NCBI GenBank assembly: GCA_013298775.1
Contig: JAAFIV010000014.1
Location: 30,197-94,196, forward strand
DNA length: 64,000 bases
Direction of reading: 5' to 3'
Source: Ignavibacteria bacterium
GTDB lineage: Bacteria; Bacteroidota; Ignavibacteria; Kapaibacteriales; UBA4661
The notes beneath the pieces were generated by a model. That model searched no databases. It was not told the origin of the DNA and saw only the letters and a list, made by a program, of their open reading frames with translations. Both the position numbers and the translations under genes were made by a program. Of this stretch, positions 3,199 through 63,509 are shown piece after piece. How positions within the stretch are numbered: the stretch's first letter is position 1; every line of letters starts with the position of its first letter.

Positions 3199-5622
3199 AT
3201 GTCCTCATTATCACAGCCTTCGGTGCCGCGTGAAAACCCATCGCGTGAACATTTATCACACGAAAACATGCCAGTTGAAAATGCCTCTTTTCCAAAAGCA
3301 GGTGGCAATCAGCGTGTTGTGAAAATTGGCTCGTGGGAGCGCGACCTTGCAACGGGGCGTATTTACTGGTCTGCAGATGCACGCGCTATTGTTGGATTTG
3401 AAGAGCATGAGGTTTGGACTATTGAAGAATATATCGCACATATTGTGCATCCTCACGACCGTGAGCGCGTGCAAGAAGCAATTCGTTATGGCATAGAGCA
3501 AGGCACGGGTTATGAAATTGAATATCGTATTCTCGTCTCGCCTTCACGCTCGGCGCATGCGTATTCGAGGAAGCACCTATCGCGCCAAGGCTCCATTGAA
3601 AAAACGGTACTCGTGTCGTGCATTATGAGCGAGTCACTGAGCGGAGTAGAGCATGAATTTGAAGCGCGTGAAGATGGCGCACACAAACGTTTACACGGCA
3701 CAATTCAAGACATTAGTGCGCTTCGCGCCACCGCAAGCGAACTCGACACACAACGCTTTCTTTTGCGAGAATCTCAAGCGATTGCCAAAATTGGCGGTTG
3801 GGAATACGACCTCGCTTCAGGAAATCTTTTCTGGACGGACGAGTATTATCATCTTATTCGCCGCACGCCGGAGGAATATCCCGCAACCATTGATAATTAC
3901 TACGCTCTTGTGCATCCCCACGACCGCAAACGCGTGTACGACGACATGCAAGCCGCACTGCAGGGCAAAAGCGACGCATTGGAATATCGTATTGTGCTGC
4001 CAGACGATACTGTGCGGCATATTCGCGGGTACGGAGCGGTAGTGCGCTCTGGAGCGGACGAGCGGATTGTTAAGTTGCGGGGTGTCATTCAGGACATCAC
4101 CGATAACAAACGCTCAGAACAAAAGCTGAAGCGGCTGACCGATATTTTGAATCAAGCGCAACACCTGACGCAGCTTGGTTCGTGGGAACGCGACTTACGC
4201 ACAGACGAACTCACATGGTCGGATGAATTCTTTCGCCAACTAGGATACGAAGCGCAGCAATTTCAGCCAGAAGCAGGATATTTCCTGACACACGTTCACC
4301 CCGACGACCGCCATATCGTGAAAGAGGCTATTTCTGCTCTTGTACGGAATGATTTTTCTTCTATTCCAGAATCGCGCTTTATTGAGTATCGCCTTATTCG
4401 CAGCGACGGCACAACGCGCTACATGCGCGGCACGGGCGGGAATATCGTGAATTCACGCGGAGAAGTAACCGTGATTTTTGGCACGTTGCAGGACATCACC
4501 TATCTCCAAGAGGCTCAGCAACGCTTGGAAGCAAGCGAGCGGAAGTTTCGCCAGCTTTTTGAGCAATCTACTCTTGGGAAGCTGATTTTCACGAGTGCCT
4601 TACAGCCCTTGCAAGCAAACACGGCACTGCTGGAATTATTGGGGTACTCGGCAGAAGAGCTGCTCACGACACCGCATCAGAACTTGTTTCACGAAGATGA
4701 GCGGCATCGTTTTACCGAGCATTTGCAGGCGTTGCTCTTGGGGAATATTCCCCTTATCCATACCGATGTTCGCCTCCGCACGAAAGCTGGAAGCACGATT
4801 TGGTGCCGCGTGCAGGTCTCTATCTTTGAACAGCACAATGATACTATTGAGCGCAATATCCTCATGACCGCAGAAGACATCACGCAATATCGCCAAGTGG
4901 AAGCAGCAATTCAAAAAACGCTCCAGCGCGAGCGCGAGACCTTCGACCAACGCAACCAAATCATTGCGCGGCTCACGCAGCAACTTCAAACGCCGCTCAG
5001 TACGATTTCGCTCGCAAGTAATATCATGCACAAGCATCATTTCAAAATGCCAGAAGAGAAGATTTCATCGTACTTCGGGAGCATTTCGGAAGCGATTGAG
5101 GAAATTCAATCATTGATGAGTAATATGGTTCTCATGGGAAAACTGGAAACCGGACGCGCCCAACTCCAACTTGCGCCGCTCAATTTTACCTCGTACAGCA
5201 AACGCCTTCTGAGCGAATTTACCTCGAAGTACAGCCATCGCCCTGTTGAAGCCACGTTCAACTTACCAGAAAATACACCCGCGCTGATTGACCATGAATT
5301 ACTGCGCCTGATTGTCTGGCATTTGTTGCTCTTTTTGGATAAAGGTTTAGCAAAAGGATTGCCAATACAATGCGCAATCGAGGTGGTCTTTGCTTCAGGA
5401 ACGCAGCTTGCAAGCAGCATAGAATGGTACTTTTCCTGTACAGACAGCCGTTACGACGACATTGCGGCTCTGCTTCAAGACAGCGAACATGCCACAAGCG
5501 ATGCCTCCGAAGTCGGCTTGGCAACGATTCAGCAAGCAGTACAACTGCACGGCGCACATCTCAGGGGCAAAAACTCTGGTACAATGCTGAAACTGGCGTT
5601 GCAACTGCCGTTGCCGTCGTAG
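3199..5622 (+). CDS. Multi-PAS sensor pseudo-histidine kinase (three PAS_3-like domains plus PAS, degenerate DHp and ATP-binding domains)
   Basis: Three repeats of the GSWERDL..G...WSDE PAS_3 pattern (GSWERDLATGRIYWSADA; GGWEYDLASGNLFWTDEY; GSWERDLRTDELTWSDEF) plus a fourth PAS; H-box position reads LTQQLQTPLSTI (His replaced by Gln); C-terminal domain lacks recognisable N/G1/G2 boxes. Confidence 0.75.
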   Translation: MSSLSQPSVPRENPSREHLSHENMPVENASFPKAGGNQRVVKIGSWERDLATGRIYWSADARAIVGFEEHEVWTIEEYIAHIVHPHDRERVQEAIRYGIEQGTGYEIEYRILVSPSRSAHAYSRKHLSRQGSIEKTVLVSCIMSESLSGVEHEFEAREDGAHKRLHGTIQDISALRATASELDTQRFLLRESQAIAKIGGWEYDLASGNLFWTDEYYHLIRRTPEEYPATIDNYYALVHPHDRKRVYDDMQAALQGKSDALEYRIVLPDDTVRHIRGYGAVVRSGADERIVKLRGVIQDITDNKRSEQKLKRLTDILNQAQHLTQLGSWERDLRTDELTWSDEFFRQLGYEAQQFQPEAGYFLTHVHPDDRHIVKEAISALVRNDFSSIPESRFIEYRLIRSDGTTRYMRGTGGNIVNSRGEVTVIFGTLQDITYLQEAQQRLEASERKFRQLFEQSTLGKLIFTSALQPLQANTALLELLGYSAEELLTTPHQNLFHEDERHRFTEHLQALLLGNIPLIHTDVRLRTKAGSTIWCRVQVSIFEQHNDTIERNILMTAEDITQYRQVEAAIQKTLQRERETFDQRNQIIARLTQQLQTPLSTISLASNIMHKHHFKMPEEKISSYFGSISEAIEEIQSLMSNMVLMGKLETGRAQLQLAPLNFTSYSKRLLSEFTSKYSHRPVEATFNLPENTPALIDHELLRLIVWHLLLFLDKGLAKGLPIQCAIEVVFASGTQLASSIEWYFSCTDSRYDDIAALLQDSEHATSDASEVGLATIQQAVQLHGAHLRGKNSGTMLKLALQLPLPS

Positions 5623-16736: not shown

Positions 16737-16793
16737 CGGCAGCAATACGGAATGGAAGTGTTTTCGAGAGACCCGCACAGAGCGCAGGGCTGT

Positions 16794-16949
16794 TAAGTTC
16801 TCGTGTTTGCCCTCATCCCAACCCTTCTCCCAGAAGGAGAAGGGCAAGACACAGAGCCGTTTCTGAAGCCCTCTCCTTCTGGGAGAGGGTTGGGTGAGGG
16901 CTTCACGGGAACAGAACTTAACAGCCCTGCGCACAAAGCGGGAGAGAGG
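16794..16949. mobile_element. Family A MITE-like palindromic element (about 156 nt) with 11-nt imperfect target-site duplication
   Basis: cagggctgttaagttct...agaacttaacagccctg; arms about 55 nt each around a central loop; flanks cgcacagagcg / cgcacaaagcg. Confidence 0.65.
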
Positions 16950-16998
16950 TACAAAATGTCAGTGATTTCTTGTACGACTTTCGCAAATGACGCAGACA

Positions 16999-17068
16999 GG
17001 AGTGTCTGCGCTACCACTTGTTTGAGGTTTTATGCGGCTTCGGTAGCACAGACACTCTTGTCTGTGCC
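16999..17068. repeat. Family B hairpin repeat
   Basis: gacgcagacaggagtgtctgcgctacc ... cggtagcacagacactcttgtctgtgcc. Confidence 0.65.
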
Positions 17069-17092
17069 ATAAGCTGGTGTGTTGTGAACGTT

Positions 17093-18970: not shown

Positions 18971-19252
18971 GGCAAATGCGGCAAGAAAAGTGAGGAAAGT
19001 AACGGAACGGCGTTTATGGTGCTTGCTGTTCGTCCATATCGCCGCTCATCCTGAACTGAAGCGGCATTGCACAATATGGAATAGATTTTGCATAGCACAG
19101 CCGCTTGGTGTGCAAAATGCAAAAAATCTTCGCCAAGCGCAAGGGAAAAGAAAGAGGGTAGTTTGATTACGCGCAGCGCAACTGTTGCGTTGTCTGCGAA
19201 GACAAGGCTTGCCTTAATGTCATCAGCGCAAGCCCTCACACCGCTCTGCGAG

Positions 19253-19575
19253 CGACCCTCTCGCAGAGGTAGAGGGTTGAGAACGGCTCTGTGTCTTGCC
19301 CTTCTCTCTCTGGAAGAAGGGTTGGGATGAGGAAAAAATTCTTACGTTGATGACATCAAGGCATACCTTTAATGGCATTAAGTTAAGCATAACTGTATGA
19401 TTTTGAACGCTTAATCATTCGCCCCCTTGATAAAGGGGGAACGGGGGATTTGAGGTTTGAAGCGTCTTTCGACAAATCCCCCACTCGCTACGCTCGTTGC
19501 CCCCTTTATCAAGGGGGCAAGATTCTATGCGGTTTGTAGTCTTAACTTAATGCCATCAAGGCATACCTTGTCTCT
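19253..19575. repeat. Composite repeat cluster upstream of rpoN: family A half-element, then an empty family C inverted-repeat pair nested in an outer IR
   Basis: 19253-19333 matches one arm plus loop of family A. 19416-19528 has cattcgcccccttgataaagggggaacgggggattt and its degenerate inverted copy. Outer IR catcaaggcatacc..atggcattaagttaag / cttaacttaatgccatcaaggcatacc. Confidence 0.6.
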
Positions 19576-25167: not shown

Positions 25168-25235
25168 GCGCTGGAGAGAATACTCAAAAAAAACTCAATA
25201 CACGACAAAATCTTTGAAGAGTTGATAACATCAGG

Positions 25236-25316
25236 CTTCAGTGGCACAGACATTCTTGTCTGTGTTTTCCGCCTACACTCCGCACTAACGCTCACAGACA
25301 AGAATGTCTGTGCCAC
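25236..25316. repeat. Family B hairpin repeat
   Basis: cagtggcacagacattcttgtctgtg ... cacagacaagaatgtctgtgccactattg. Confidence 0.7.
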
Positions 25317-25473
25317 TATTGATGAAATTTGTCGTGGAGCTAACAAAAAAACTCAGAAAATACTCAACACACACTCTCGGCAGAGAGCAGAATACAAAAG
25401 CCGTCCGTCGCAGACCGCAAATGCCAAGCATTCATGCGCTTTACAACGGACGGCTTTTCCAATATAGCTAAAT

Positions 25474-26364: not shown

Positions 26365-26447
26365 AGGGTTTGTACGTGGTAAATCTGTATTCTGTTATTG
26401 TTCAATGTTTGTGGGATGCTTGGACGTGAACGATGTCGCATTCGCCC

Positions 26448-26934
26448 CCTTGATAAAGGGGGAACGGGGGATTTAACGCCTACAAGCCTCATCAATGCTT
26501 GTACAGATAGCTTCAAATCGCTCCAATACATCCAAATTAGTAAAGCGAATAACGCTTAGTCCATAACTACCGAGAAACGTTGTTCTTTTCGCATCATATT
26601 CTTGACCAGCATCAGTAAAATGCGGATCGCCATCAATTTCAATCACTATATTTTTTTCAGAGCAATAAAAATCAACAATATAGTTACCAAGCGGCTTCTG
26701 GCGTAGCCAGCGTACTGAGTGGGTTCGTAAAAACTCAAACCATAATTTTCGCTCGGCTAGTGTCATTGCTTGGCGCAATTCTCTTGCTCGGTCTTTCAAA
26801 GCAGGATTATACGGAATATATGGTGGTGAATTTTCCATATTTTTCACCTGAATATCCGAACTGTATTGAAGAGCAAAAAATGCACTTAGTGGTTAAATCC
26901 CCCGTTCCCCCTTTATCAAGGGGGCGAAGGAGTG
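26448..26934. mobile_element. Family C element: 37-nt terminal inverted repeats bounding a DUF559 endonuclease gene (candidate selfish REP13E12-like unit)
   Basis: Left cattcgcccccttgataaagggggaacgggggattta (26448-26486), right taaatcccccgttccccctttatcaagggggcgaaggagtg (26894-26934). Same IR pair without cargo at 19416-19528 and 45521-45797. Confidence 0.5.
26473..26847 (-). CDS. DUF559 endonuclease-domain protein (Vsr-like fold)
   Basis: LAERKLWFEFLRTH...WLRQKPLGNYIVDFYCSEKNIVIEIDGDPHF matches the DUF559 pattern (R..W..LR, xxDF, EIDG..H). Confidence 0.8.
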   Translation of the reverse strand: MKNMENSPPYIPYNPALKDRARELRQAMTLAERKLWFEFLRTHSVRWLRQKPLGNYIVDFYCSEKNIVIEIDGDPHFTDAGQEYDAKRTTFLGSYGLSVIRFTNLDVLERFEAICTSIDEACRR

Positions 26935-26950
26935 ATGCGGCTTTCGACGA

Positions 26951-27382
26951 TTATTGCCCATCCAAAATAAACGCATCCGCTTCAATTTCTACCAGCATTG
27001 CGGGGTCAATGAGGCGCGAAATTTCATACATGGATGACGCGGGCAAAATCTGCCCGAAAACCTCACCATGCGCTTTGCCAATCTTTTCCCATTCGTCAAT
27101 ATTTTTCACAAAAACACGCGTTCTCACGACATCCTTGAGCGACGCACCTGCTTTTGCAAGAACCGTTTCGATGTTCTTTAGTATTTGCACCGTCTGTGCG
27201 TAAGAATCGCCCACGCCGACAATTTCTCCCGTTGCGTAATCAACAGCCGTTGTGCCTGTAACCCAGACATTTGGTCCGATGCGCACTACGCGGGAATAGC
27301 CAACAATGGATTCCCATTTCGCGCCAGTAGAGATATTGATACGTTCCTGTTTCATGATTCCGACTCTTTGATTTTTACTCAC
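26951..27382 (-). CDS. ridA: RidA/YjgF-family reactive-intermediate deaminase
   Basis: [46 protein letters not shown] is the RidA family signature region. Confidence 0.8.
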
Positions 27383-30430: not shown

Positions 30431-30528
30431 TTGGTAGCGCAGACAAACTGAGGGAAGCCCTCAGTTTGTCTGCGCGGTGTTAGTGCGGCATTGAAGAAGG
30501 CACAGACAAGAGTGTCTGTGCTACTAAA
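30431..30528. repeat. Family B hairpin repeat
   Basis: ttggtagcgcagacaaactgagggaagccctcagtttgtctgcgc ... ggcacagacaagagtgtctgtgctactaa. Confidence 0.7.
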
Positions 30529-30540
30529 AACAGACGAATG

Positions 30541-32325: not shown

Positions 32326-32438
32326 AATGGTTCAAAATTTCAGTGAAACAAGTTTAGTAGTATGAGATTTTGCAAACACTTTGCTTGGGGAAATCTGATT
32401 TTACGCGCCTTTTTATGTACCCTACAAAAAATCTTCAG

Positions 32439-32516
32439 TAGTGGCACAGACATTCTTGTCTGTGAGTATTGGCGTGTTTCAGGCGACAAACACAGACAAG
32501 AATGTCTGTGCCACTG
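32439..32516. repeat. Family B hairpin repeat
   Basis: agtagtggcacagacattcttgtctgtgag ... cacagacaagaatgtctgtgccactgaagc. Confidence 0.7.
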
Positions 32517-32676
32517 AAGCCTGATTTTATGAAGCCTACAGAGATTTTGCCTGATACTTCAAGGTGCTTTCCACAGAACAAGGCTTTTGCAAAAGCTCAA
32601 TGATAATGTACAAAAAAGATTGTGCTTCAAACCCGCTTCAAATCTAGGTTTGAAGCACAATCAACGCTGTAAAAAC

Positions 32677-34160: not shown

Positions 34161-34209
34161 ATTGTGAATGGATAATTGACGTTGATAAGAGTAGTATTTT
34201 GCGCGTTTT

Positions 34210-34282
34210 GTGGCGCAGACAAGAGTGTCCGCGCTACCCAGATAAACACTGGCTTCGGTAGAACAGACACTCTTGTCTGTTC
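34210..34282. repeat. Family B hairpin repeat
   Basis: tggcgcagacaagagtgtccgcgctaccc ... ggtagaacagacactcttgtctgttcc. Confidence 0.7.
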
Positions 34283-34316
34283 CTCTTACAATATTTTGAC
34301 TATTTTGACTGGCGAC

Positions 34317-40182: not shown

Positions 40183-40221
40183 GAGTTTTTGGTTGTTGAT
40201 TGTACAGTGAGCATTTTTTGG

Positions 40222-40289
40222 GCTTCGGTAGCGCGGACGCTCCTGTCTGCGACATTTGTGAGACGCAGACAAGAGTGTCCGCGCTACCA
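40222..40289. repeat. Family B hairpin repeat
   Basis: cggtagcgcggacgctcctgtctgcg ... cgcagacaagagtgtccgcgctacc. Confidence 0.7.
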
Positions 40290-40306
40290 AGAAGAGAAAA
40301 ATCTGT

Positions 40307-41737: not shown

Positions 41738-41790
41738 GCTACTTGGGTTCAAACTATTCCACATGAAAAGTACACGATAACATTTCTTTA

Positions 41791-41872
41791 GTAGTGGCAC
41801 AGACATTCCTGTCTGTGAGTATTAGTGCGAGTTTTAGGTGGAAAACACAGACAGGAATGTCTGTGCCACTAA
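41791..41872. repeat. Family B hairpin repeat
   Basis: gtagtggcacagacattcctgtctgtgag ... cacagacaggaatgtctgtgccactaaaac. Confidence 0.7.
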
Positions 41873-41907
41873 AACAGGTTTCTTCAGAGATTTTATCGTG
41901 TAAAAAA

Positions 41908-44449: not shown

Positions 44450-44495
44450 AAACGTTTTCCTCCTGATGTGAACGGTGAAAAAACTTCTTCGATTT

Positions 44496-44571
44496 TGGTA
44501 GCGCAGACACTCCTGTCTGCGAGGTTTCATAAGGCATTGAAGGGGCGCAGACAAGAGTGTCCGCGCTACGG
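44496..44571. repeat. Family B hairpin repeat
   Basis: ggtagcgcagacactcctgtctgcg ... gcgcagacaagagtgtccgcgctacg. Confidence 0.7.
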
Positions 44572-45467: not shown

Positions 45468-45520
45468 AAAGAATAGTTTTGTTGAGAAAATAACTATTGC
45501 AGAACGCTATCGAATTTGCC

Positions 45521-45797
45521 CCCTTGATAAAGGCAGGGCTGTTAAGTTCTCGTGTTTTCCCTCATCCCAACCCTTCTCCCAGAGGGAGAAGGGCAAGATA
45601 CAGAGCCACCTCTTCACCCTCGCCCCGCGTTTCGCGTGGGAGAGGGTCGCTCGCAGAGCGGGGTGAGGGCAGAACTTAACAGCCCTGCCCTTGATAAAGG
45701 GGGAACGGGGGATTTGTCCTGTGTGCGTGAGCAAGGGGTGCTGGAGACCGCACAGACCGTGAATCCCCCGTTCCCCCTTTATCAAGGGGGCGAATGA
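45521..45797. repeat. Family C inverted-repeat pair (empty) whose left arm is interrupted by a family A insertion
   Basis: gcccccttgataaagg | family A | cccttgataaagggggaacgggggattt ... aatcccccgttccccctttatcaagggggcgaatgagtg. Confidence 0.65.
45543..45687. mobile_element. Family A MITE-like element nested in family C, with 13-nt target-site duplication cccttgataaagg
   Basis: cagggctgttaagttctcg...cagaacttaacagccctg; duplicated flank at 45530-45542 and 45688-45700; removing element plus one duplicate restores an intact family C arm. Confidence 0.7.
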
Positions 45798-45949
45798 GTG
45801 AACTAATTGCTGTAGAACCTGAGTAGCTACGAAAAAGCAAGTATTGACGGGCTGCGGAAATGTTATTCGTGCAATGCAAGATACGGAGAAATGTTGTATT
45901 TTCGAGGTGCAATGGTGTACGACATTTTCAAATTTTTCCTTCATTCCGA

Positions 45950-49360: not shown

Positions 49361-49468
49361 GCCCTCACCCCTCGCTGCGCGAGACCCTCTCCCAGAGGGC
49401 GAGGGTTGGTGGAGACTAGCTCTGAAGCCCTCTCCCTCTGGGCGAGGGTTGGGTGAGGGTCTTTTGCG
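49361..49468. repeat. Family A-related palindromic element (subfamily lacking the cagggctgttaagttct termini)
   Basis: ccctcacccctcgc...ccctctcccagagggcgagggttgg...ctctgaagccctctccctctgggcgagggttgggtgagggtc. Confidence 0.6.
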
Positions 49469-49487: not shown

Positions 49488-51359
49488 TTATTCGCGGTCT
49501 TCATTTTGGCGTGGCGACCCAAAAATGCTTCCAAAGCGAGTAAAAAACGACGAGCGCGGCGGCTCCGATACTGATGTTTCAGCTTCAGATTTCGTCCGCT
49601 CGCTCGTGCTTTTTTCGTGTGCTGATGCGCTTTGTGAGGTAGGCTGCGACGCTGATGATTCCGTTGTTAATGATTCTGTCGTCAATGATTCCGTTGTTAA
49701 TGATTCTGTCGTTAATGATTCTGTTGTCAATGATTCCGTTGTGCGTGATTGTTGTGCGCCAGACGTGGCGGAATCTACGGCAAAATCGAAGCTCTTGAAC
49801 ATTTCTGCAAGGTCGGCGGCTTGCATAGCAAACGACGGATGGTCGAACTGCGCTTCCAATGGTATTCCTGATGCAGGTACTGATGACGCAAGCGGCTCGG
49901 TAATTTCAAACTCTGCATCAATCACGGAAGTTGTCGTGTTGGGTGCTTGATTGCTGGCTTGATTGCTGGCTTTGTGTGGAGTTTCAGGTGCTGTTGAAAT
50001 TGGTTGATGAAGCGAGTTCTCAGGTGATTTTTCAGGTAATTTTTCAGGTAATTCCTCATTGGTCAAGATTGTTGCAGGTGAGTTTTCATGCGCACTCTGG
50101 GCAATATCGCTTGTTTCGGTGTGGTCTTGTTCAATTGCTTTTTCTGTCACTTTGAATGAAGATTGTTCCGACGGTATTGTTGCTTGCTGCGTCGTTTCTG
50201 CTTGTGTTGATTCCGAAACAGGAGAAGGCGTACTCGCTAGATGTGCTTCCGCGCTTGCAACGGTGCGCTTTGTACGGATTGCTGTACCGATAGCCAGTTC
50301 GCCAATGGTATCGTCGGCTTTGAGTATCGGCTCTTCGTGCGCTGGAAATTGGGGTGCAAAATTGAGTGGAAGTGTTGTCGTGTCCTCTATTGGTGCGGGT
50401 TTGGGGAGTTCGTCGTTGGCAATGGCGAGTTCTAATTTCGCAACAATATCGTTCAGCACGTGGAGAAACTCGCGTTGCCCAACATAGCGCAGGGAACGAG
50501 TTTTCATCAGCTCTTCCAGCTCTTGTGCAATGCGGTAAATACCTTTGTCATCCAAGAAAATAATCAGCGCGGGTGTAGGAACTTTGCCGCGATATTGCTG
50601 TAATGCGCGGTCTCCAGCGTGAATTTCATCGAACATTTCAAACATTGGCGTAAGCAAATCCGTAAATTCTTCGGGCGAATACTCCAAAATCACGTCGTTA
50701 TCAACGGTTTGCAACACGCGGTCGAATTCCACCACCGACACTAAACTGGTATCAACCGTGAAAGGTCGCACAGAATCTGGCTTTGTGAGGTTGTCCTGCA
50801 AGCGAGTATCGGTGCGGTCTGTGGGGGATTGTGTGGCTGTACCTGTGAAAGCTCCATTGCCGCCATTTGCTTCCGCACCTGATTTTTCCTGCTGTTTCGT
50901 GCTAATCCAGTTCCGCACACCATCCAACATGTAATCGTATTCCAAAAAATAATCCATGCGAAGCATTACTTCGCGCAAGGTTTTCGTGGGTTCGCCGCGA
51001 TAGACAAACCATTTCAGCGTTGTGCGCGGACGCAAGATGTAGTTGAAGCGAGTTTTTACGGCAAGGTCAATAGCAGCGTTCAGGTCTTGGTGGTCGTAGC
51101 GGGCGGATTCCATCAGCACGTGGTCAAGTTCGCTGAAAAGCCCTGAGAGTGCGGGGTTGGTGGTGTCGAAGCGAGGATTAGCGGCGCGTTGCATTTGTTG
51201 GTCAAAAATCCACCATTGCGATTCCGCACCAAAGAAATTTCGGTAAAAGACGGCAATATCCGCCCTGCGACGAATGTCGTCCCAATAGACGTACTGCGAA
51301 GCACCAGCCATGCGCTGTGTGAGCAATTCTTTTGCGCGTTGTATTTCTCGTTCAAACAT
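49488..51359 (-). CDS. Hypothetical protein (623 aa) with conserved-looking N-terminal about 330 aa and acidic low-complexity C-region including (TESLT)x5
   Basis: 15-nt tandem repeats at about 49640-49740 encode TESLTTESLTTESLTTESLTTESLT; no domain recognised by eye. Confidence 0.5.
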   Translation of the reverse strand: MFEREIQRAKELLTQRMAGASQYVYWDDIRRRADIAVFYRNFFGAESQWWIFDQQMQRAANPRFDTTNPALSGLFSELDHVLMESARYDHQDLNAAIDLAVKTRFNYILRPRTTLKWFVYRGEPTKTLREVMLRMDYFLEYDYMLDGVRNWISTKQQEKSGAEANGGNGAFTGTATQSPTDRTDTRLQDNLTKPDSVRPFTVDTSLVSVVEFDRVLQTVDNDVILEYSPEEFTDLLTPMFEMFDEIHAGDRALQQYRGKVPTPALIIFLDDKGIYRIAQELEELMKTRSLRYVGQREFLHVLNDIVAKLELAIANDELPKPAPIEDTTTLPLNFAPQFPAHEEPILKADDTIGELAIGTAIRTKRTVASAEAHLASTPSPVSESTQAETTQQATIPSEQSSFKVTEKAIEQDHTETSDIAQSAHENSPATILTNEELPEKLPEKSPENSLHQPISTAPETPHKASNQASNQAPNTTTSVIDAEFEITEPLASSVPASGIPLEAQFDHPSFAMQAADLAEMFKSFDFAVDSATSGAQQSRTTESLTTESLTTESLTTESLTTESLTTESSASQPTSQSASAHEKSTSERTKSEAETSVSEPPRSSFFTRFGSIFGSPRQNEDRE

Positions 51360-54300: not shown

Positions 54301-55265
54301 ACATTGCCCGTGCTGTCTTTTTCCAGCATAATAATTCCACTCTCCCGCAACAGCGTCGTGCTGTTCGCGCCCGTAAATGGCTGAATCGCAAGATTTCCTG
54401 CGGCTTGTGGCTGTGCGCAGTGAAATAATCCTTTGCCCGTCCCGATAAGGAGTTCGCCATTACTCATTTCTTGAAGCGAGTGAATATGCGCTGTTGGGGT
54501 GTTTGCAATGGAAGCGTTTGCGGTGGAAGCATTTGCTGTGGAAGCATTTGCGGTGGAAGCGTTTGCTGCGGGAGTGTTGCTCGTGGCATCGCTCAGGAAT
54601 GGCGTACAGACACCTGTTTCAGGCGAATAACGATGCAGACCATTTGCAGTGCCAAGCCAAAGCGTGCCGTGCGAATCGTGCAGGAATGCGTACAAATATG
54701 CCGAGCGCAAGCCCTTTTCACCTGCTTTGAGAATGATTTCTTTCCTCACTTCTTTGCTTGCTGTTATCCTTATCTCTTGGTTTGATTCTTCAAGGATGCC
54801 GATTTCATCTGTGCGCATAGCTGCCGTGTGAATCCAGCACCAGAGCTTGCCGGAACGGTCTTCGTGTATATCGGCGATGGGCTTATTGGCAAAAAAGCGT
54901 TGGAAGGTGTTCGTGTTGCGATTGAGGCGTGCAAGTCCTGAAGCCGTTCCCAGCCATAATCTTCCTTGCTTGTCCTCGTGCAGATGCAGAACGTTGCTGC
55001 TTGGCAAGGATCGCACATTACCGCTTTCATGTAGAAACTGGGTCATGGAAACGCCATCCCAACGAAATGCACCTTGCTCGGTTGCAAACCACAGAAAGCC
55101 ATATTTGTCTTGCAAAACCGCCTGAACATGGCGTGAATGCAAGCCTTGCTGGGTAGTGAGTGCCTCAATTTGGAGGGTTTGCTGTGCAAAACTCGGCGCA
55201 CAACAGATAAACAGATTGCACAGGCAAAAAAAACAGCCAAAAAAATATTGTAGCGAATGTTTCAT
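51390..55265 (-). CDS. Two-component-regulator propeller (Reg_prop/Y_Y_Y) sensor histidine kinase without receiver domain
   Basis: Signal peptide; repeated propeller motifs (GTLWLGTANGL; LWIGHEGGV; GRVWIGSEGGV; GNIWVSTRRGV); TM WWRAWWFLAGSSILTLLAAFLLY; H-box VMHEINNP; N LVNAAQAG, G1 VHDNGKGM, G2 GNSGLGL. Internal 15-nt tandem repeats (ANAST)x4. ATG at 55265. Confidence 0.85.
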   Translation of the reverse strand: MKHSLQYFFGCFFCLCNLFICCAPSFAQQTLQIEALTTQQGLHSRHVQAVLQDKYGFLWFATEQGAFRWDGVSMTQFLHESGNVRSLPSSNVLHLHEDKQGRLWLGTASGLARLNRNTNTFQRFFANKPIADIHEDRSGKLWCWIHTAAMRTDEIGILEESNQEIRITASKEVRKEIILKAGEKGLRSAYLYAFLHDSHGTLWLGTANGLHRYSPETGVCTPFLSDATSNTPAANASTANASTANASTANASIANTPTAHIHSLQEMSNGELLIGTGKGLFHCAQPQAAGNLAIQPFTGANSTTLLRESGIIMLEKDSTGNVFAGAMRREGTVNTIVWVDVQRGTMSEPLPVLPLEGKAQSHRTALDANNGHIYWGVGNGAIRLNTAQMHSELLLADAAAPTRLHAGVAGACVSKAGKIWFARTSSGVSALLPPPPPFAALTKPLLLAHSVSAIAEAPDGAMWIGYMNGTGVSLFNPRTQAISHLRTDARNPSSLLGFDGETNIYAFCSTNVGTRRGAWWVGGFALERRISDESGANTRFEHTLLFNNQALPVSAMLEDADGNFWIGTHSVGLFLLDAAGNVVKQFTNKPSNTESLGNNTIHTIIQDRAKMLWIGHEGGVDTFDPKRKMFRHFRAYAFPTNNHEEETEEQENLSNTAASGIVGAVHALLCDSKGRVWIGSEGGVSCFDPATQALVRHFSTRTGLPNNAIAGIVEDGSGNIWVSTRRGVCRISEENMKGVEGSSILTFTRASGLADDEFSNGAATRSRDGKLWFGGRSAIVYFHPDSIIRGAVNSIRSDVGANVGTDIGKENTSNKAVMTYVKKFGEITPLEEYIADAERIELGYADKIIAFGYAAPSMLYPEHAQFAYKLEGLDTAYILAGTEREAKYTSLPDGEYTFFVKAADHNGVWQNRATALRVIVRPPWWRAWWFLAGSSILTLLAAFLLYKRRIRTIELRNQELTRLVDERTHQLKEANIEVHRQLEILDEQAQEIEISNTRLQETNLQLDSTLNELKDTQTQLVQSERINAAGMLTAGVMHEINNPNASIHSAVELGQQQLRSLEQYFFSLLDAEGRASKEAAGFTERAQKLADILHIALTGSERIGNIVTSLQGFTKHQHVGKTRNDVAAEVRSTATMFRYQFKDIVVEEQLPSHIHVKAQWDEINQAMLNLLVNAAQAGATRIRIAAELSDGSEGAPKLIFSVHDNGKGMDAETQKHIFEPFFTTKSVGNSGLGLSITRQIIERHHGEITVESTPGQGTTFTITLPQKNGSADATAETQTETQAETQAGAAH

Positions 55266-56812: not shown

Positions 56813-56912
56813 CGCCGCCCTCACCCCTCGCTGCTCTCCCAGAGGGAGAGGGTTGGTGGAGACTAGCTCTGAAGCCCTCTCCCTCTGGGAGAGGGTTGGG
56901 TGAGGGTCTTTT
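56813..56912. repeat. Family A-related palindromic element between susC and susD
   Basis: Near-identical to the 49361-49468 copy (ccctcacccctcgctgctctcccagagggagagggttggtggagactagctctgaagccctctccctctgggagagggttgggtgagggtc). Confidence 0.6.
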
Positions 56913-63360: not shown

Positions 63361-63444
63361 TGCTAATGTTGGTAGTAATGTTGGGTTTGGTTGTTCGCCG
63401 TTGGTGGTGGAAGTGGAAATAATGGAAGTAAACGCCCACAAACA

Positions 63445-63509
63445 ACAGTGTCTGTGCCATATTGCCACGAAGAAAATTTCATGGCAACATACCACAGACA
63501 CTTCTTTTG
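63445..63509. repeat. Degenerate family B repeat
   Basis: acagtgtctgtgccat ... accacagacacttcttttg. Confidence 0.4.

What the first reader, a model, noticed from the sequence alone, without database searches (positions are those of the whole stretch)
26448..26934. DUF559 endonuclease gene bounded by 37-nt perfect inverted repeats that also occur as empty pairs: candidate selfish element
The termini cattcgcccccttgataaagggggaacgggggattt and their reverse complement flank a 124-aa Vsr-like DUF559 ORF. The same IR pair bounds short non-coding spacers at 19416-19528 and 45521-45797. This resembles the DUF559-bearing REP13E12 repeats of mycobacteria and suggests a small mobile or homing unit with non-autonomous derivatives. 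No transposase is present.
Basis: partly seen in the sequence, partly recalled or inferred. Interest (0 to 1): 0.7.

Follow-up and report, generated by a model that had tools for sequence, protein, structure and literature searches.

The report
Endonuclease gene bracketed by triplex-motif repeats
A small DUF559 (Vsr-like) nuclease gene sits between two inverted copies of a BoxC-like "triplex-motif" repeat, and the same arrangement surrounds its relatives in many bacterial phyla, including E. coli ycjD, which suggests the missing enzyme partner of a repeat family unexplained since the 1990s.

Summary
A perfect 37-nt inverted repeat (26441-26477 / 26892-26928) brackets an intact DUF559 ORF (26476-26838, minus strand). 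The two "empty" copies are real but more complex: both are MITE-like elements of about 190 nt.

Each arm has the BoxC/PIT design: pyrimidine run, loop, purine run, linker, mirror copy of the purine run.

The unit behaves as a discrete insertion:
- The three closest relatives keep the ridA-atpG synteny with a 38-93 nt spacer and no arms.
- Other Kapaibacteria carry the same unit at other loci.
- The MITE doublets share its arms and outer flanks.

The arrangement is general. In 62 non-redundant homologue loci (GC 29-71%), 87% have flanking inverted repeats above the control 95th percentile. PIT motifs are 54-fold denser beside DUF559, and no control ORF had them on both sides. E. coli ycjD ends in a degenerate BoxC, with TMECO no. 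9 lying 168 nt downstream.

No paper in the searched library links DUF559 to these repeats. The best analogy is REPIN/RAYT, not REP13E12, which is HNH/DUF222. Nuclease action on the arms is inferred, not shown.

The parts
26410..26438 (.). Outer flank on the atpG side (approximate outer boundary of the inserted block). Contains GAACGATGTCG, which matches the MITE outer segment GAACGCTGTCG.
   Evidence: The 51-nt match of the MITE left end covers this flank plus the arm. Homology with relative L155 resumes only at about 26395-26408.
26439..26477 (+). Arm next to the 3' end of the gene. PIT/BoxC-type motif on the + strand: CCCCCTT-GATA-AAGGGGG-AAC-GGGGGAT. It contains the gene's stop codon (26473-26475).
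   Evidence: (I7). The local DNA hairpin folds at -7.5 kcal/mol.
26476..26838 (-). DUF559 (Vsr-like PD-(D/E)XK) ORF, 121 aa from the ATG (124 aa if the GTG at 26847 is used).
   Evidence: Pfam PF04480 E=2.2e-28. Invariant D56, E67, D69, H73 in 30 homologues. dN/dS 0.08-0.17. AF2 model pLDDT 89, with best folds 3HRL and I-Bth0305I.
26839..26891 (-). Leader between the upstream arm and the start codon, with an AGGTGA Shine-Dalgarno-like site.
   Evidence: Sequence. No convincing sigma-70 promoter or terminator was found.
26892..26930 (-). Arm upstream of the gene. The same PIT motif read on the minus strand.
26931..26950 (.). Outer flank on the ridA side (GAGTGATGCGGCTTTCGACG). GAGTGA is shared with the MITE right end and with L021.
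   Evidence: The ridA stop codon is at 26951-26953.
19371..19556 (.). 186-nt MITE-like element with outer inverted repeats (GGCATTAAGTTAAG...). Inside it are the arm 19416-19451 (+) and a partner arm 19474-19521 (-) that carries a 13-nt insertion.
   Evidence: There are 85-88% identical copies in more than 20 loci of related MAGs. It folds as a long hairpin, z = -6.8.
45489..45830 (.). MITE doublet. The left arm is split (45519-45533 and 45688-45715) by a nested 154-nt element (45534-45687) with a 13-nt target duplication. A 45-nt spacer and the right arm 45761-45796 (-) follow. The outer ends match the MITE consensus.
   Evidence: (I13, I18). The 117-nt core folds at -43.7 kcal/mol, z = -10.3.

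Best explanation
The locus is a block of about 530 bp: outer flank, PIT/BoxC-type arm, DUF559 nuclease gene, inverted arm, outer flank. It was inserted between ridA and atpG in this Candidatus Kapaibacterium lineage. The ~190-nt doublets elsewhere in the window, in which the two arms face each other across a ~46-nt spacer, are its non-autonomous relatives.

Shown:
- the architecture;
- its conservation around DUF559 homologues across phyla;
- its absence from the orthologous site in close relatives;
- the ends shared with the doublets;
- purifying selection on the ORF, alongside near-invariant arms.

Inferred: the small Vsr-like PD-(D/E)XK nuclease recognises the arms. The form it recognises is most likely the folded hairpin or intrastrand triplex that single-stranded or supercoiled DNA can adopt. 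It nicks or cuts there, and host recombination or repair then copies or relocates the arm-bounded unit. The doublets would be carried in trans.

Functionally this resembles a REPIN/RAYT pair or an IS/MITE pair. It differs in using a hydrolytic nuclease instead of a transposase and a triplex-motif repeat instead of a plain palindrome.
For: In the window and its relatives:
- The arms and ORF are as described.
- The arms fit the three-block mirror design of BoxC/PIT/TMECO (PMC4666352).
- A genome scan with the exact 27-mer found 66 loci in 7 Kapaibacteria/Ignavibacteria MAGs. Most are +/- doublets with a 44-48 nt spacer.
- Those doublets have conserved spacers, outer flanks and GTAAC... terminal inverted repeats.
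- DUF559 homologues of 68-84% identity sit inside the same arms in L021, L053, L059, L067/68 and L069. Their neighbours differ: maeB, type III R-M, HMGL-like.
- The DUF559 elements share the arm plus outer flank with the MITE consensus. The window matches over 51 nt on the left and 41 nt on the right, and L067 has the GTAAC terminal repeat.
- In relatives with 95/90/83% AtpG identity and the same synteny, the ridA-atpG spacer is 93/40/38 nt and has no arms.

Across bacteria:
- Of 74 loci with enough flank on both sides (80 from the metagenome scan plus four fetched earlier; identity to the window protein 45-80%), 88% have an upstream/downstream inverted repeat above the 95th percentile of shifted controls.
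- On the non-redundant set this is 87% of 62 loci, with GC from 29 to 71%.
- PIT density is 7.1/kb within 200 nt of DUF559 and 0.13/kb elsewhere.
- 62 of 69 DUF559 genes have a PIT on at least one side and 45 of 69 on both. Among 160 control ORFs the counts are 7 and 0.
- The downstream arm starts a median 2 nt after the stop codon.
- Where the comparison is informative, the third run is a mirror rather than a direct copy, 95 to 22.
- E. coli ycjD (43% identical) ends in a degenerate BoxC, and TMECO no. 9 lies 168 nt downstream.
- The N. gonorrhoeae NGO0050 homologue and a Deinococcus copy are also flanked by PITs.

The protein:
- dN/dS is 0.08-0.17 with dS of about 1 or more for most pairs, while the arms stay 97-100% identical.
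- The best structural matches are 3HRL and the homing endonuclease I-Bth0305I.
Against: - No biochemical datum links any DUF559 protein to these repeats.
- A PD-(D/E)XK hydrolase cannot perform strand transfer by itself, so the mobility step needs unidentified host functions.
- No target-site duplication or nucleotide-exact boundary could be defined for the DUF559 unit or the doublets.
- Holder et al. saw no stable triplex in vivo for E. coli TMECO. They also found no mobility genes near the repeats (PMC4666352).
- In three betaproteobacterial loci (L083, L092, L095) the unit lies at the same locus. That looks like vertical inheritance rather than active movement.
- About 38% of complete E. 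coli genomes lack the ycjD region yet keep BoxC copies.
- Only 64 kb of the source genome was visible. Copy numbers per genome are therefore unknown.
Confidence: 0.55

Rival explanations
1. Domesticated guardian. DUF559 is a host structure-specific repair nuclease that removes hairpin or triplex structures formed by PIT repeats at replication forks. The arms beside its gene are operators for autoregulation, or simply the by-product of a local cis effect. The nuclease does not spread the repeats.
For: - The ORF is under strong purifying selection.
- The locus is conserved in L083, L092 and L095.
- The family is mainly chromosomal: 39 of 72,556 plasmids and 3 of 50,697 phages.
- A Caulobacter DUF559 protein (VsrA) is proposed to act in mismatch repair (PMC12907096).
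- TMECO sites stall polymerases in vitro and mark unstable loci (PMC4666352).
Against: - A housekeeping gene should keep its place. Here the whole arm-bounded block is missing from the orthologous site of three close relatives and sits at other loci in other genomes.
- The stop codon is built into the arm and the geometry is fixed across phyla. That is expected of a unit that travels with its ends.
- The MITEs share the outer flanks too.
Confidence: 0.2
2. Homing endonuclease of palindromic repeats. The ORF alone is the selfish part. Its product cuts the centre of empty PIT doublets, and repair copies the ORF into them, so the arms are target halves and not element ends.
For: - The fold matches the Vsr-like homing endonuclease I-Bth0305I (Foldseek E=4.8e-4).
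- The Vsr/DUF559 clade is listed as containing a group I intron homing endonuclease (PMC3424549).
- Empty doublets with the same arms exist in the same genomes.
- The arms bracket varied interiors of 46, about 107 and 222 nt.
Against: - At this locus the relatives have no arms at all, so the arms came with the ORF.
- In L070, L072 and L073 the only PIT motifs in 10-20 kb are those beside the gene, so no pool of targets is visible.
- The doublet spacer shows no similarity to the ORF ends beyond the arm.
Confidence: 0.15
3. Coincidence or generic REP behaviour. PIT repeats are ordinary intergenic palindromes (terminators, mRNA stabilisers) that happen to lie on both sides of a short gene.
For: - The arms occur beside many unrelated genes.
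- Holder et al. found no functional bias among genes next to TMECO.
Against: - Flanks of DUF559 carry 54 times the PIT density of the rest of the same loci.
- None of 160 control ORFs has PITs on both sides, against 45 of 69 DUF559 genes.
- 87-88% of loci have flanking inverted repeats above the control 95th percentile, across GC 29-71%.
- No terminator-like signature was found. PIT elements showed no promoter or terminator activity in earlier work (PMC4666352).
Confidence: 0.03
4. RNA-level module. The two arms pair in a read-through transcript into a long stem that is processed, as in rRNA intervening sequences. The DUF559 protein then acts on RNA, like the related RAP domains.
For: - Arm-arm pairing is very stable.
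- The model also resembles RAP-like mitoribosomal proteins (ranks 4-6).
Against: - The conserved mirror-symmetric third purine run fits a DNA purine-motif triplex, which is stated not to form in RNA (PMC4666352).
- No Rfam family matches.
- The catalytic D, E, D and H residues typical of DNA nucleases are invariant.
Confidence: 0.05

Closest known systems
BoxC / PIT (potential intrastrand triplex) / TMECO repeats of E. coli and other bacteria (Bergler 1992 and Hoyne 2000 as cited in Holder et al. 2015, PMC4666352)
   Same: - The same three-block design: pyrimidine run, loop, purine run, short linker, mirror purine run.
- Intergenic and multi-copy.
- Often found as inverted pairs with the third runs facing each other.
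- Two further families in this window (CCCTTCTCCC... and CCCTCTCCC...) are close to the E. coli consensus CCCTCNCCC-N3-6-GGGNGAGGG-N3-GGGNGAGGG.
   Different: - The arms here use homopolymer C5/G5 blocks plus TT/AA, not the CCCTCNCCC consensus.
- They are embedded in larger MITEs with terminal inverted repeats.
- They bracket a nuclease gene. The published work reports no associated enzyme and no mobility genes.
REPIN/RAYT systems (REP doublets and their REP-associated tyrosine transposase); comparison from general knowledge of Nunvar 2010, Bertels & Rainey 2011 and Ton-Hoang 2012, not re-read here
   Same: - A small gene flanked by inverted copies of a short structured repeat.
- The same repeat dispersed in the genome as inverted doublets that fold into long hairpins.
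- A mostly chromosomal location.
   Different: - The enzyme is a PD-(D/E)XK Vsr-like hydrolase, not a Y1 HUH transposase.
- The repeats carry a third, mirror-symmetric run.
- The gene's position is not fixed among related Kapaibacteria.
IS element with MITE derivatives
   Same: Long and short elements share their ends (arms, outer flanks and GTAAC... terminal repeats). The short forms are much more numerous.
   Different: No DDE, HUH, serine or tyrosine recombinase is present. No target-site duplication was found for the unit.
I-Bth0305I (EDxHD, Vsr-like homing endonuclease; PDB 3R3P) and E. coli Vsr
   Same: The same catalytic fold and conserved acidic and histidine residues.
   Different: - There is no intron or intein context and no extra DNA-binding domain.
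- There is no neighbouring cytosine methyltransferase as Vsr has with Dcm.
- Sequence identity is only 16-21%.
REP13E12 of Mycobacterium tuberculosis
   Same: A repeated chromosomal element that encodes a nuclease-family protein.
   Different: REP13E12 is described as HNH endonuclease/DUF222 (PMC10589994). No paper in the library contains both 'DUF559' and 'REP13E12'. Its size and structure are also different.

Membership tests
DUF559 (Pfam PF04480) | Match to the family HMM above the gathering score | tested here: met
   98.7 bits against a cut-off of 20.6, E=2.2e-28, covering profile positions 3-108 of 109.
DUF559 (Pfam PF04480) | Vsr-like PD-(D/E)XK fold with conserved acidic and histidine residues | tested here: met
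   AF2 model pLDDT 89.3. Best PDB match is 3HRL (E=3.7e-6), followed by 3R3P. D56, E67, D69 and H73 are invariant in 30 homologues.
Vsr very-short-patch repair endonuclease (PF03852) | Match to the Vsr HMM, and a partner C5-cytosine methyltransferase gene nearby | tested here: not met
   Only DUF559 and a weak MTES_1575 hit appear at E<=0.01. The neighbours are atpG and ridA. Foldseek to 1CW0 gives only E=0.1.
Vsr very-short-patch repair endonuclease (PF03852) | Nicking 5' of the T in a T:G mismatch | not testable with these tools
   Biochemical assay needed.
BoxC / PIT / TMECO triplex-motif repeats | Three blocks of at least 6 nt: pyrimidine block, complementary purine block, and a third block that mirrors the purine block. 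Loops of 1-6 nt (ITxF criteria, PMC4666352). | tested here: met
   CCCCCTT / GATA / AAGGGGG / AAC / GGGGGAT, with T allowed opposite A. Across DUF559 flanks, mirror beats direct 95 to 22 where informative.
BoxC / PIT / TMECO triplex-motif repeats | Intergenic, multi-copy, with frequent inverted pairs | tested here: met
   Five arm copies in the window and 66 loci in 7 related MAGs, mostly as inverted doublets.
BoxC / PIT / TMECO triplex-motif repeats | Match to the E. coli consensus CCCTCNCCC-N3-6-GGGNGAGGG-N3-GGGNGAGGG | tested here: not met
   The arms use C5/G5 blocks. Other repeats in the window (for example 16869-16898 and 56875-56904) do come close to that consensus.
BoxC / PIT / TMECO triplex-motif repeats | Formation of an intrastrand triplex in vitro | not testable with these tools
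   ViennaRNA predicts only the hairpin part, -7.5 kcal/mol. CD or NMR is needed.
REPIN/RAYT | The enzyme is a Y1 (HUH) IS200/IS605-like transposase | tested here: not met
   Pfam shows DUF559 only.
REPIN/RAYT | The gene is flanked by inverted copies of the repeat, and that repeat is dispersed as inverted doublets | tested here: met
REPIN/RAYT | Single copy per genome, vertically inherited at a fixed locus | tested here: inconclusive
   Loci differ among Kapaibacteria, and there are two copies in MAG JACVZY01. The locus is the same in L083, L092 and L095. Whole genomes were not available.
IS element with MITEs | Encodes a recognised transposase | tested here: not met
   No other ORF with a family match lies inside the arms.
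IS element with MITEs | Terminal inverted repeats shared by the long and short forms | tested here: met
IS element with MITEs | Target-site duplication | tested here: inconclusive
   None was recognisable in 27 aligned doublets or at the window's unit.
Homing endonuclease gene (EDxHD class) | Empty alleles carry the uninterrupted target, here an arm-arm junction | tested here: not met
   The ridA-atpG spacers of L155, L157 and L159 contain no arm.
REP13E12 (M. tuberculosis) | Repeat unit encoding a DUF222/HNH protein | tested here: not met
   The protein here is DUF559. REP13E12 is described as HNH/DUF222.

The most novel reading that the evidence does not exclude
Small stand-alone DUF559 nucleases, E. 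coli YcjD included, are the cognate and so far unrecognised enzymes of BoxC/PIT triplex-motif repeats throughout bacteria. This would be a second REPIN/RAYT-like partnership. It would be built on a Vsr-like PD-(D/E)XK nuclease that recognises a folded hairpin or triplex DNA end, and it would generate and maintain the dispersed doublets.
Probability: 0.4. Interest if true: 0.85.

Novelty: new variant of a known kind. Interest (0 to 1): 0.75.

Why it matters
BoxC/PIT/TMECO repeats have been known in E. coli since the early 1990s and occur in hundreds of genomes. Their origin, their means of spread and any partner protein have remained unknown. The main survey states that no mobility function was ever found near them (PMC4666352).

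DUF559 is a large family: 21,194 clusters at 50% identity with E<=1e-3. It has a solved structure (3HRL) but no assigned role.

A tight, phylum-spanning physical link between the two gives each a testable function. It can be tested in E. coli with ycjD and its adjacent BoxC. It would also add a hydrolytic-nuclease counterpart to the REPIN/RAYT paradigm.

It explains as well why many DUF559 gene calls carry odd N- or C-terminal peptides such as PPLLKGG, which are translated arms.

Tried and rejected
- **Rfam.** No family reached gathering score in the whole window. Only a chance-level sraA hit (E=1.5) appeared in the element.
- **Promoter and terminator scan.** Nothing above shuffled expectation.
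- **Defence-system profiles (PADLOC).** Only weak partial hits, E of about 1e-4 to 1e-3. NCBIfam gave only the YcjD model, below its cut-off.
- **Locating the source contig by exact protein.** Not on record. The cluster look-up gave no name. The organism was inferred from a 95% AtpG match to Candidatus Kapaibacterium.
- **Nucleotide-exact insertion boundaries and target duplications.** The intergenic DNA of the 95% relative is too diverged; only about 50 nt next to atpG aligns. The 27 aligned doublets show no clear duplication.
- **DUF559 remnants inside other arm pairs.** None found.
- **Doublet spacers as recognisable internal deletions of the ORF.** Similarity does not extend beyond the arm's inner TTAAC.
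- **REP13E12 analogy.** Rejected.
- **Chance or generic-REP explanation.** Rejected on the control statistics.
- **Literature.** Searches for any paper tying DUF559, YcjD, COG2852 or PF04480 to BoxC, PIT, triplex or inverted repeats found none. The library lacks most subscription journals, so this is not proof of absence.
Full report
**Observation**

Further copies are at 19416-19451 (+) and 45761-45796 (-). No match is expected in shuffles. Exact complementarity at the gene runs 37 nt, 26441-26477 against 26892-26928.

Between the arms lies one ORF on the minus strand, 26473-26847. Its likely start is the ATG at 26838, which follows AGGTGA. That gives the 121-aa product found at 100% identity in the protein database (P0001). 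It matches Pfam DUF559 at E=2.2e-28. The TAA stop is part of the inner edge of the arm.

**What the arms are**

Each arm reads CCCCCTT-GATA-AAGGGGG-AAC-GGGGGAT. This is a pyrimidine block, a loop, the complementary purine block, a 3-nt linker and a third block that mirrors the purine block. That is the design of the BoxC / PIT / TMECO "intrastrand triplex" repeats of E. coli and many other bacteria (PMC4666352). A simple detector for this design finds 15 sites in the window, all in six intergenic repeat islands. The folding tool sees only the hairpin part (-7.5 kcal/mol). The arm-spacer-arm doublets fold into long hairpins with z = -10.3 and -6.8. No Rfam family matches.

**The other copies in the window**

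- 19416-19521 is a pair whose right arm carries a 13-nt insertion between its C runs. The pair lies inside a 186-nt repeat (19371-19556) with its own outer inverted repeats and many copies in related MAGs.
- 45489-45830 is a doublet whose left arm is split by a nested 154-nt element (45534-45687). That element is flanked by a 13-nt duplication of the arm's hairpin, CCCTTGATAAAGG.

**Relatives of the source organism**

AtpG, encoded next door, is 95% identical to that of a Candidatus Kapaibacterium MAG.

The exact 27-nt arm core occurs in 66 stretches of 7 Kapaibacteria/Ignavibacteria MAGs, often at contig ends. Allowing mismatches, most copies are +/- pairs with a 44-48 nt spacer.

Aligned, these doublets are elements of about 190 nt. 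They have a conserved spacer, conserved asymmetric outer flanks (GAACGCTGTCGTATTCG... and ...CGAATGAGTGAAATTAC) and terminal inverted repeats GTAACTATTCAGGT.../...ACCTGAATAGTTAC.

DUF559 homologues inside the same arms occur in:
- L053 and L059, both from MAG JACVZY01;
- L021, from JAAFHM01;
- L067/L068, 80% identical;
- L069.

Their neighbours differ: type III restriction-modification genes, maeB, an HMGL-like gene. The DUF559-bearing units share the outer flanks with the doublets as well as the arms. The window matches the MITE left end over 51 nt and the right end over 41 nt. L067 also carries the GTAAC terminal repeat.

**Filled versus empty site**

Three relatives have AtpG 95, 90 and 83% identical and the same gene order (atpA, hldD, ridA, atpG, then pssA in two of the three). 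Their ridA-atpG spacers are 93, 40 and 38 nt and contain neither arm nor DUF559. Only the ~50 nt next to atpG aligns with the window.

This places the extra block at roughly 26410-26940, about 530 bp. The arms therefore came (or went) together with the ORF. Exact boundaries and a target duplication could not be defined.

**Generality**

A metagenome scan with an alignment of 30 homologues returned 80 loci at 45-73% identity. Four loci fetched earlier (L067, L069, L070, L072) were added to them.

- Reading their flanks shows the same architecture with lineage-specific sequences. Examples are C6-TTTTAA-G6-TTA-G6ATC in low-GC loci, GACCCCCTGACAAGGGGGTC-GCGAGCCGAAGGCGAGC-GGGGGGTTT in high-GC loci, and CCTCCCTTGTGTAAAGGGAGG...GGAGGGATT in gut contigs.
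- The best inverted repeat between the 200-nt upstream and downstream flanks exceeds the 95th percentile of same-spacing shifted controls in 88% of 74 loci. The median score is 22 against 8.5.
- On the non-redundant set this is 87% of 62 loci, spanning GC 29-71%.
- PIT motifs occur at 7.1/kb within 200 nt of DUF559 and 0.13/kb elsewhere.
- 62 of 69 genes have a PIT on at least one side and 45 of 69 on both. Among 160 other ORFs in the same loci the counts are 7 and 0.
- The commonest geometry is C-G-G upstream and C-C-G downstream on the coding strand. The downstream arm begins a median 2 nt after the stop.
- Where the purine block is asymmetric and the comparison informative, the third block is a mirror rather than a direct copy, 95 to 22.
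- In L070, L072 and L073 the only such motifs in 10-20 kb are those beside the gene.
- Over-long gene calls in the protein database translate the arms as PPLLKGG, SPLAPLNKGG and similar.

**Model organisms**

- E. coli K-12 ycjD (b1289, DUF559) is 43% identical to the window protein. It ends ...TCACCCTCTCCCTGAaagagcgaggggg, a degenerate BoxC.
- TMECO no. 9 of Holder's Table 1 (1,351,239-1,351,204) lies 168 nt downstream of ycjD. That paper does not mention ycjD or any endonuclease.
- With 23 TMECOs at 18 loci, the chance that a given gene has one beside it is roughly 1%. This is my own rough estimate.
- The homologue of N. gonorrhoeae NGO0050, the protein of the only close solved structure (3HRL), is flanked by direct copies of a PIT-containing repeat. 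A Deinococcus proteolyticus copy has inverted PITs.
- The family is rare on plasmids (39 of 72,556 records, several of them chromids or mislabelled chromosomes) and in phages (3 of 50,697).

**The protein**

- D56, E67, D69 and H73 and the RFxN motif are invariant in 30 homologues.
- The AF2 model (pLDDT 89.3) matches 3HRL best, then the catalytic domain of the homing endonuclease I-Bth0305I. Vsr scores lower.
- Between Kapaibacteria copies, dN/dS is 0.08-0.17. For most pairs synonymous sites are near or at saturation.
- Over the same divergence the 36-nt arms stay 97-100% identical. The arms are therefore constrained in sequence or homogenised.
- The family has 21,194 representatives at E<=1e-3.

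**How it most likely works**

The following are shown:
- an arm-bounded nuclease gene that is a discrete, relocatable block;
- abundant short derivatives that share its ends;
- a conserved three-block arm architecture that co-varies in sequence with the lineage but keeps its mirror symmetry;
- an intact, selected nuclease.

The following are inferred. The nuclease recognises its arms, probably in a folded hairpin or triplex state, and nicks them. Host repair or recombination then copies or moves arm-bounded DNA, with the doublets as passengers. I put about 0.55 on this reading.

The rivals are:
- a domesticated structure-repair nuclease with autoregulatory arms (0.2);
- an ORF-only homing endonuclease that targets doublets (0.15), disfavoured here because the empty sites lack arms;
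- an RNA-level module (0.05);
- coincidence (0.03).

**Comparison with the known**

- The arms are members of the BoxC/PIT class by architecture, though not by the E. coli consensus.
- The system works like REPIN/RAYT or IS/MITE. It fails their defining enzyme criterion, because it has no Y1 or DDE transposase.
- REP13E12 is HNH/DUF222 and is not a good comparison.
- No paper in the searchable library connects DUF559, YcjD or COG2852 with BoxC, PIT or triplex repeats. The library omits most subscription journals, so priority cannot be excluded.

**Caveats**

- Only 64 kb of the genome was visible.
- The MAG loci are fragments chosen by the repeat itself.
- The motif detector is home-made.
- The metagenome loci are partly redundant; this was corrected.
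- There is no experimental evidence that any DUF559 protein acts on these repeats.

Noticed in passing
window 16785-16929 and 45534-45687; also L003 about 640-660 and L006 about 4880-4900: A ~150-nt element with CAGGGCTGTTAAGTTCT terminal inverted repeats carries two outward-facing PIT motifs. It is inserted into hairpins with long duplications of the hairpin interior: 13 nt (CCCTTGATAAAGG) in the arm at 45521-45533/45688-45700, and about 11 nt (CGCACAnAGCG) at 16774-16784/16930-16940. The same insertion point in the arm's hairpin recurs in two other genomes, so this looks like a hairpin-targeting MITE.
   Followed up: partly
window 16806-16900, 19232-19337, 45555-45670, 49361-49459, 56818-56906: Two further PIT/BoxC-like repeat families are present: CCCTTCTCCC-AGAG-GGAGAAGGG-TT-GGGATGAGGG and CCCTCTCCC-TCTG-GGAGAGGG-TT-GGGTGAGGG. 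Both are close in design to the E. coli TMECO consensus. No DUF559 gene lies beside them in this window. Whether the genome has paralogues flanked by these types could not be checked.
   Followed up: partly
window 16980-17070, 25206-25331, 30490-30539, 32417-32549, 34190-34292, 40208-40302, 41770-41884, 44478-44569, 63431-63459: An unrelated, abundant hairpin repeat (GGCACAGACAAGAATGTCTGTGCCAC and variants) occurs often as inverted pairs in intergenic regions. One copy lies in the pssA-atpG spacer next to the finding. It is REP-like, and its partner enzyme is unknown.
   Followed up: no
L053 1-4400, L059 1-5500, L069 259-3600: Three of the Kapaibacteria/Ignavibacteria DUF559 units sit between or next to the mod and res genes of type III restriction-modification systems. 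This could be chance, a preferred landing zone, or a functional link between a Vsr-like nuclease and DNA methylation.
   Followed up: no
L154 2819-2905 (E. coli K-12 1,351,318-1,351,404) and the E. coli genome search: Downstream of ycjD there is a duplicated fragment of the gene's own 3' end (GGAGACGGTGCTGGAGAATATTC...) between the degenerate BoxC at the stop codon and TMECO no. 9. The ycjD region is at least 80% covered in only 3,378 of 5,426 complete E. coli genomes, while BoxC-only matches persist in the others.
   Followed up: partly
L053 4465-4560: Next to an arm, its outer flank (GGCGAATGCGACAATGTTA) is amplified as about five tandem copies.
   Followed up: no
window 19483-19495; L059, L069 and L053 arms: Short insertions such as ACTCGCTACGCTC, AGCGAAGCGCT and CAGCGAACGCAGTGAGC replace the 3-nt linker or the loop of some arms in several genomes. 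The linker and loop are therefore hot spots for a small recurrent insert. The high-GC arms have a similar GCGAGCCGAAGGCGAGC linker.
   Followed up: no
window 49640-49759 and 54490-54574: Two arrays of 15-nt tandem repeats (ATGATTCCGTTGTTA and GCGGTGGAAGCATTT types), probably inside coding sequence.
   Followed up: no
model m15f627d53adb (ranks 4-6, 11-12, 18): The DUF559 model also resembles subunits of Tetrahymena and Toxoplasma mitochondrial ribosomes. These are probably RAP-like domains (my inference; the hit table only names the ribosome entries). This would hint that the fold can be used for RNA binding.
   Followed up: no
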